64,000 bases of DNA, taken from Octopus vulgaris. Lineage: Eukaryota. The notes under the pieces are model-generated. The model was not told the origin of the DNA, did no database searches, and saw only the letters and a list, made by a program, of their open reading frames with translations. This document shows, one piece after another, positions 12,888 through 13,172 of the stretch. The translations under genes and the position numbers were made by a program. Position 1 is the first letter of the stretch, and the number at the start of each line of letters is the position of its first letter. Location of the stretch: NCBI GenBank assembly GCA_951406725.2, contig OX597826.1, forward strand, positions 74,648,001 through 74,712,000, in the 5' to 3' direction.

Positions 12888-13172
12888 TGGAGATGTACTT
12901 GCATAGCAAGTGATTTGATCTGAGATCGTGTGCTGAAACGAAAACAATTGTACCGTGGAAGGTGTTTGTAAGCCATTTAAGAATCACACAAAAGCCGTTC
13001 GATTCACTTCAACATTTAAGTTTAATTTGTCAAAATATTTTTGTCAGTGAACAGGTCGCGGTCTTATAGCGACGAAAATATTTTGACAAATTAAACTTAA
13101 ATGTTGAAGTGAATCGAACGGCTTTTGTGTGATTCTTAAATGGCTTACAAATACCTTCCACGCTACAATTGT
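12888..13172 (+). mobile_element. Fold-back HHR element (family H2) with ~98-bp inverted arms
   Basis: 12944-13041 is the reverse complement of 13075-13172 with 2 mismatches seen; (TA)n lies on both sides. Confidence 0.8.
13040..13090 (+). ncRNA. Minimal type I hammerhead motif, G3-C8 variant
   Basis: Stem I TTTGTCA/TGACAAA, core GTGAACA, stem II GTCGC/GCGAC, GAAA, palindromic stem III AATATT, triplet UUU. Confidence 0.65.

What the first reader, a model, noticed from the sequence alone, without database searches (positions are those of the whole stretch)
13040..13090. Hammerhead core with swapped G3-C8 pair
Seen: core GUGAACA instead of CUGANGA, inside an otherwise clean fold (7-bp stem I, 5-bp stem II, GAAA). 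Established: positions 3 and 8 form a Watson-Crick pair in the active hammerhead. Inference: this is a compensatory double change, which standard CUGANGA searches would miss, with an unusual UUU cleavage triplet.
Basis: partly seen in the sequence, partly recalled or inferred. Interest (0 to 1): 0.8.

Follow-up and report, generated by a model that had tools for sequence, protein, structure and literature searches.

The report
Swapped-core hammerhead in octopus retrotransposon
Thousands of copies of a Penelope-like jumping gene in this octopus-type genome carry a hammerhead RNA motif with two paired core letters swapped (G3-C8 instead of C3-G8), while sister families keep the usual pair, so it is likely a natural form of a self-cutting RNA variant so far known from laboratory mutants, though cutting is untested.

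Summary
The motif is real and G3-C8 is the family consensus: 95 of the first 100 of 6,689 genomic matches. It lies in the pseudo-LTR of a Penelope-like element with RT and GIY-YIG domains (intact 1,025-aa ORF), 56 nt before the inferred start codon. Related families carry C3-G8 with an almost identical stem II. An older family, 77% identical downstream, also has G3-C8. This is natural covariation of the one core double swap that rescues activity in vitro (PMC9901934).

U17 is ordinary here (24 of 56 published motifs).

Against activity: copies do not pile up at the cut site, a young sister family fixed A9C, and nothing was assayed. I found no natural G3-C8 in the papers I could read, but key papers were unavailable. 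This scan noted G3-C8 before, in protist elements and phages.

The parts
13040..13046 (+). Hammerhead stem I, 5' strand (7 bp)
   Evidence: kept in young and old subfamilies while the base just outside varies
13047..13053 (+). Core GUGAACA: G3 (13047), U4, G5, A6, A7, C8 (13052), A9
   Evidence: G3-C8 in 95 of 100 listed copies
13054..13054 (+). Extra unpaired G between A9 and G10.1
   Evidence: shared by all five related families; an extra nucleotide here is a hallmark of PLE minimal hammerheads (PMC4209133)
13055..13073 (+). Stem II (5 bp) with a 9-nt loop; the loop differs between subfamilies
13074..13083 (+). G12-A13-A14-A15.1, palindromic stem III (13077-13082) and U17 (13083); predicted cut between 13083 and 13084
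   Evidence: cut site inferred from hammerhead numbering, not observed
13084..13090 (+). Hammerhead stem I, 3' strand
13037..13172 (+). 5'-truncated sense copy of the pseudo-LTR end of the Penelope-like element, without the tail
   Evidence: element positions 12-147; parent ORF
13140..13172 (+). Inferred first 11 codons of the element's ORF (ATG at 13140)
   Evidence: the family's tail frame aligns with the N-terminus of the sister family's ORF (score 44, 0 of 2,000 shuffles); no full-length copy joining it to the rest of the ORF was found
12889..13045 (-). Inverted, more deeply truncated copy (element positions 46-202) carrying the optional ~57-nt tail (12889-12943)
   Evidence: inverted pair with a tail on one side only is the PLE insertion pattern (PMC8557442)
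13172..13581 (.). (TA)n microsatellite flank; a TA-rich flank also lies at 12673-12887
   Evidence: many family copies end in (TA)n

Best explanation
This is a minimal type I hammerhead motif in the pseudo-LTR of a Penelope-like retrotransposon whose 3-8 core pair is G-C instead of C-G, and it likely still cuts its RNA, weakly, as a dimer or with help from the element's protein. Shown: the motif, its fixation in the family, the RT plus GIY-YIG parent, and C-G versus G-C in related families. Inferred: G3 pairs with C8 so that the ribose at position 8 is still placed for catalysis; two motifs pair through the palindromic stem III; the cut would fall after U17, 56 nt before the start codon, processing tandem transcripts or shaping the mRNA leader; cutting would not be needed for making new copies. 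This particular window copy is likely silent, because a transcript coming from upstream would fold into the 102-bp hairpin.
For: Fixation. Parent element with the motif in its 3' pseudo-LTR, just behind an intron-like 3' splice site. Covariation: in 18 natural copies from five families the 3-8 pair is G-C in 10 and C-G in 8, never unpaired in this hand-picked set, and one stem II pair also changes on both sides (these are related sequences, so one event each). Long retention: family D is 77% identical to family A downstream, and with positions 3 and 8 left free its pattern gave G3-C8 in 18 of 29, A3-C8 in 6, and C3-G8 in 1 that resembles another family. Between A and D the free position N7, loop II and stem III length changed and stem I pair 6 went U-A to G-C, while 21 structural positions that were free in at least one search did not change (0.77^21 = 0.004). 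The motif precedes the ORF, so codons do not explain this. Runs with three other organism labels list no variant of 3% or more at G3, C8 or U17 (2 rows not shown). Biochemistry from papers: the G:C swap is the only rescuing double mutant in this core region (PMC9901934), and it partly restores cleavage of a PLE hammerhead that needs the element's protein (PMC11167929).
Against: No cleavage data. Only 41 copies genome-wide have a non-T right before the predicted cut product (36 junctions, 5 U17C point changes), and 0 of 38 sampled 5' ends fall on the cut, so templates were mostly uncut. The young, intact sister family B has C instead of A at core position 9, so this clade can spread with a non-consensus core. 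Among family A copies lacking C8, G is 42 of 100 against A 12, while the background ratio is 6 to 27; this is unexplained. Nearest-neighbour energies do not favour the hammerhead dimer (-27.0 versus 2 x -14.5 for monomers with a G3-U17 wobble). G as the extra nucleotide occurs in 1 of 56 published motifs, and I recall (not read) that it slowed a viroid hammerhead. Outside the motif, homology between the A/D and B/C pseudo-LTRs is not significant against shuffles; their relationship rests on the proteins (55% identical), the position and the motif itself.
Confidence: 0.6

Rival explanations
1. The fold is kept under selection but no longer cuts to any useful extent. It serves as a structural element of the 5' leader, for example for binding the element's protein, splicing or translation start, and G3-C8 is kept because the tertiary fold needs a 3-8 pair.
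For: No pile-up of copy ends at the cut; A9C fixed in an active sister family; hammerhead mutants did not impair insertion of a PLE in vitro and no RNA-seq reads ended at its cut site (PMC11167929); low in vitro activity of PLE minimal hammerheads (PMC4209133); the motif sits between a splice acceptor and the start codon.
Against: All catalytic positions (G5, G12, A15.1-U16.1, non-G at 17) are kept between families A and D, and the change at 3-8 is exactly the one that rescues cleavage in vitro.
Confidence: 0.3
2. The ribozyme died by mutation in one ancestral master copy and G3 and C8 are two unrelated changes carried along by amplification, with no selection on the motif.
For: High copy number alone shows amplification, not selection; G3-G8 copies occur in several subfamily backgrounds; family D was first found with a pattern that fixed part of the motif.
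Against: Two random changes would rarely hit exactly the two partners and restore a Watson-Crick pair. Stems and core stayed fixed between A and D while neighbouring sequence changed by 23%, and subfamily differences fall in loop II and just outside stem I.
Confidence: 0.08
3. The fold is a chance by-product of the local inverted duplication.
For: Stem I's 5' strand lies at the junction of a 102-nt inverted repeat.
Against: The same motif is present in thousands of independent copies, including non-inverted ones and those behind intact ORFs.
Confidence: 0.01

Closest known systems
Minimal type I hammerheads (min-HHR) in pseudo-LTRs of metazoan Penelope-like elements (Cervera and de la Pena 2014, PMC4209133)
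   Same: Type I order, location in the pseudo-LTR, unpaired nucleotide between 9 and 10.1, G10.1-C11.1, short palindromic stem III implying dimers, frequent U17, many dispersed truncated or inverted copies.
   Different: 3-8 pair is G-C. In their 56-motif alignment it is C-G in 53, U-A in 2, U-G in 1 and G-C in none (my count; their descriptors could not have found it). The extra nucleotide is G (1 of 56 there) and stem I is longer (7 bp).
Natural U3-A8 core variants (Perreault 2011, PMC3088659; Schistosoma Cercyon PLEs, PMC4209133)
   Same: Natural compensatory change of the same tertiary pair. Neptune-type elements in this genome also carry U3-A8.
   Different: G-C needs two transversions with no wobble intermediate, whereas U-A is reachable by transitions through U-G.
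Laboratory C3G/G8C double mutants (PMC9901934; PMC11167929; review PMC8495972)
   Same: Same swap; partial rescue of cleavage, including in a PLE hammerhead.
   Different: Here it is the natural state of a family with thousands of copies, combined with U17 and an extra G; activity not measured.
Nematis-type EN+ Penelope-like elements (Craig 2021, PMC8557442)
   Same: C-terminal GIY-YIG, short Cys linker like the Nematis rows of their Fig. S2 (by eye), inverted 5'-truncated pairs, one-sided tail, microsatellite targets.
   Different: Clade assignment is by linker pattern only, no tree. The tail is about 57 nt rather than 30-40.

Membership tests
Hammerhead ribozyme (type I) | Core C3-U4-G5-A6-N7-G8-A9 consensus | tested here: not met
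   G3 and C8 replace C3 and G8; the other core letters match
Hammerhead ribozyme (type I) | Watson-Crick complementarity of positions 3 and 8 | tested here: met
   G-C in families A and D, C-G in B, C and E
Hammerhead ribozyme (type I) | G12-A13-A14-A15.1, U16.1 and H17 | tested here: met
   13074-13077, 13082, U17 at 13083; U17 in 65 of 66 copies
Hammerhead ribozyme (type I) | Stems I and II with compensatory changes | tested here: met
   stem II pair changes on both sides; stem I pair 6 U-A versus G-C between A and D
Hammerhead ribozyme (type I) | Stable stem III as a monomer | tested here: not met
   only a 6-nt palindrome; forcing the first pair costs 5.4 kcal/mol
Hammerhead ribozyme (type I) | Rfam hammerhead model match | tested here: not met
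   no hit at gathering or E up to 10; canonical sister motifs are also missed
Hammerhead ribozyme (type I) | Site-specific self-cleavage after H17 | not testable with these tools
   only assembled contigs were available; the genomic footprint test was negative
PLE minimal hammerhead (min-HHR) | Unpaired nucleotide between 9 and 10.1; G10.1-C11.1; palindromic stem III | tested here: met
   13054; 13055-13073; 13077-13082
PLE minimal hammerhead (min-HHR) | Located in the pseudo-LTR of an RT/GIY-YIG element | tested here: met
PLE minimal hammerhead (min-HHR) | Cleaves as a dimer | tested here: inconclusive
   dimer can be drawn at -27.0 kcal/mol but is not the predicted minimum; same-strand tandems exist (L028-L030, L142)
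Penelope-like element, EN+ | Single ORF with PLE-type RT and C-terminal GIY-YIG | tested here: met
   1,025-aa open frame; GIY-YIG over Pfam cut-off, RVT_1 only weak at E 0.052 on a 265-aa fragment
Penelope-like element, EN+ | 5'-truncated and inverted insertions with a one-sided tail | tested here: met
   13 of 25 sampled insertions are inverted pairs; 3' ends cluster at element positions 145-150 and 202-205
Penelope-like element, Nematis clade | Placement in an RT tree | not tested
   only the linker pattern was compared by eye

The most novel reading that the evidence does not exclude
In this clade of Penelope-like elements the hammerhead has been repeatedly retuned (G3-C8 in one branch, A9C in its sister, extra G in all) into a slow, protein-gated switch in the mRNA leader. 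It stays uncut while the RNA is a template for reverse transcription and cuts, or simply folds, to start translation of the ORF 56 nt downstream. G3-C8 with U17 would be a stable natural solution that avoids a G3-C17 trap.
Probability: 0.15. Interest if true: 0.75.

Novelty: new variant of a known kind. Interest (0 to 1): 0.5.

Why it matters
The C3-G8 pair was proved by the laboratory swap, and U3-A8 has been seen in nature; I found no natural G3-C8 in the papers I could read. Here the swap is the consensus of a young family with thousands of copies and of an older relative, next to canonical sisters. One genome thus holds C-G, G-C and U-A cores plus an A9C family. That gives a matched natural series for asking what PLE hammerheads do, which is still open. 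It also shows that CUGANGA-based surveys undercount these ribozymes by whole families.

Tried and rejected
Rfam: no hammerhead hit for the window or for four related loci, canonical ones included. The 5.2-kb tandem on C28 was a host gene duplication, not the parent element. The GIY-YIG family search returned other, Neptune-type elements with U3-A8 motifs; the parent was reached by walking upstream from longer copies. Idea that copies start at the cut site: rejected. Idea that G3-G8 copies are one intermediate subfamily: rejected, they are spread over several backgrounds and the older family D already has G3-C8. Idea that U17 is specific to G3: weakened, since young family B has U17 with C3-G8; A and D are related and count as one event. 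RNA: no RNA holder listed on record. One run guessed to be RNA shows A>G at 14 places against 5 in the two others, which could be editing of the hairpin transcripts but could be allelic; a fourth run laid nothing. Literature searches for natural G3-C8 found none. Lunse et al. 2017, Przybilski and Hammann 2007 and Nelson and Uhlenbeck 2008 were not held, and one supplement of PMC4209133 could not be searched; any of these could bear on novelty. No RT tree was built and no full-length family A copy with both pseudo-LTRs in tandem was found.

Full report
1. Observation. Three features were missed: an extra G at 13054, a stem III that is only the palindrome at 13077-13082, and a 102-nt, 97% complementary inverted repeat (12944-13045 with 13071-13172). 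A transcript through the whole repeat folds into one hairpin of -162 kcal/mol that sequesters GAAA and the 3' strand of stem I, so this copy is likely silent.

2. The family. A pattern with positions 3, 7 and 8 free has 6,689 matches in the 2.8-Gb genome and 0 in the reversed control. Of the first 100 listed, 95 are G3-C8, 5 are single changes and none is C3-G8 (counted by eye). Among 66 copies spanning the whole motif, from loci chosen by upstream sequence, downstream sequence or ORF and not by the core, 60 are G3-C8, 3 G-G, 2 G-U and 1 gapped; 65 have U17 and 52 keep all 11 scored core letters. Runs with three other organism labels (C, D, B) show no listed variant of 3% or more at G3, C8 or U17 but do vary in loop II and just outside stem I; two rows were not shown and a fourth run laid nothing. 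The labels are coded, so I cannot say how distinct these organisms are.

3. The element. Copies are 5'-truncated, often in inverted pairs (13 of 25 sampled insertions), flanked by (TA)n, and end at two places about 57 nt apart, the pattern described for Penelope-like elements (PMC8557442, passages). Walking upstream from longer copies gave an intron-like branch point and acceptor 14 nt before stem I, then a GIY-YIG endonuclease and an RT. One copy has an open frame of 1,025 aa followed by the G3-C8 motif; six young copies with long open frames have identical motifs, and older copies differ in loop II and in the bases just outside stem I. The Cys linker resembles Nematis rows by eye. The tail translates to a peptide that aligns with the N-terminus of the sister ORF (0 of 2,000 shuffles as good), which puts the inferred start codon at window 13140 and the hammerhead in the 5' leader. 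The closest named protein is from Octopus vulgaris (58%) and is encoded in this genome.

4. Covariation. That protein belongs to sister family B (55% identical over RT-EN). Its pseudo-LTR has the same layout with C3-G8, an extra G, an A-U in place of one G-C in stem II, C at position 9, and C17 (older) or U17 (younger). A pattern excluding G at 3 gave 5,661 matches; of the 100 listed about 88 are C3-G8, about 73 belong to B (about 66 with C9) and about 21 to a canonical family C and relatives (by eye). A second G3-C8 family, D, appeared among 74 short-loop matches. With 3 and 8 free, its pattern gave 18 G3-C8, 6 A3-C8, 2 G3-U8, 1 G3-A8, 1 C3-A8 and 1 C3-G8 of 29. D is old (copies 58-85% identical to their majority) and 77% identical to A downstream. 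It differs at N7, loop II and stem III length and has a compensated stem I pair. On 18 hand-picked natural copies the 3-8 pair is G-C in 10 and C-G in 8, and every slid control scores far lower; the sequences are related, so this is one swap, not eight. Outside the motif, A/D versus B/C pseudo-LTR similarity is not above shuffles. Since C3-G8 is in B, C and 53 of 56 published PLE motifs, G3-C8 is most simply the derived state (inference).

5. Mechanism. In the active hammerhead, 3 and 8 pair and the 2'-OH at 8 serves as general acid (PMC6155905, passages). Full pairwise mutagenesis found the G:C swap to be the only rescuing double change in that region (PMC9901934, passages). In an anole PLE the swap partly restored cleavage, cleavage needed the element's protein, and hammerhead mutants still inserted in vitro (PMC11167929, parts 1-2 of 4). 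Minimal PLE hammerheads cut poorly and only as dimers or with an extended stem III (PMC4209133, parts 1-2 of 4). I therefore infer a slow, dimer- or protein-dependent ribozyme that cuts after U17. One paper notes, as data not shown, that G3-C8 works better with G17 than C17 (PMC3884650, passages and introduction), which suggests U17 avoids a G3-C17 trap; the data here neither require nor exclude that.

6. Results against. Only 41 copies have a non-T just before the predicted cut product, 36 of them junctions, and 0 of 38 sampled 5' ends are at the cut. Family B is young and intact yet carries A9C. Among 269 family A copies lacking C8, the first 100 have G 42, T 46 and A 12 (by eye), against a background transversion ratio of 6 to 27; the G8 copies are scattered over subfamilies and none has C3. 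The energy model does not favour the dimer. No RNA ends could be examined.

7. Novelty. Eight literature searches aimed at natural variants found no natural G3-C8. Natural covariation was reported as U3-A8 (PMC3088659, passages; PMC4209133). I also saw passages of PMC6765202, PMC8495972, PMC13725137, PMC10085705 and PMC7229834, part 1 of 5 of bioRxiv 10.64898/2026.07.22.740005, parts 1-2 of 3 of one supplement of PMC4209133, and a term search plus part 54 of the PMC8557442 supplement. Lunse 2017, Przybilski and Hammann 2007 and Nelson and Uhlenbeck 2008 could not be read, so prior notice is possible. The UUU triplet is not novel: U17 is in 24 of 56 published motifs. Earlier notes of this scan describe G3-C8 motifs in protist PLEs and phages; I did not check them, and they are leads, not support.

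8. Verdict. A real, compensated G3-C8 core in an otherwise typical PLE minimal hammerhead, fixed in two families and set against canonical sisters. New variant of a known kind; cleavage likely weak and unshown. Interest 0.5.

Noticed in passing
window 18408 (+) and 56263 (-); L096-L098: Two copies of the pseudo-LTR end of a Neptune-type Penelope-like element with a U3-A8 hammerhead-like core and a palindromic stem III; full copies have a 781-aa RT-EN frame and an upstream frame.
   Followed up: partly
L162-L182 (family B): Young family with intact frames up to 1,312 aa and partial tandems whose hammerhead has C instead of A at core position 9; a few older copies have A9. A fixed A9C may deserve its own test.
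   Followed up: partly
L183-L212 and one search list: Family A copies revert C8 to G about 15 times more often than the background transversion ratio predicts, across subfamilies and without C3. Unexplained.
   Followed up: partly
L136:8345-8575, run X3: A>G differences at 14 places on the sense strand in a run guessed to be RNA, against 5 in two other runs; possibly A-to-I editing of hairpin transcripts, not shown.
   Followed up: no
window 13720-13745: A CUGACGA ... GAAAC string next to a TA run that looks like a degenerate hammerhead core without a good stem II.
   Followed up: no
window 55444-55478: A short diverged fragment of the same element's tail region.
   Followed up: no
L031-L033: A 5.2-kb tandem duplication carrying three to four family A copies per unit together with exons of what looks like a fucosyltransferase gene (recalled resemblance).
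   Followed up: no
P0092: A public protein annotated as a dynein regulatory complex subunit isoform begins with about 150 residues of the family B RT, suggesting an exonized element or a gene-model error.
   Followed up: no
L233, L244, L245: Further canonical-core motifs of the same clade with other stem III sequences, probably more old families.
   Followed up: partly
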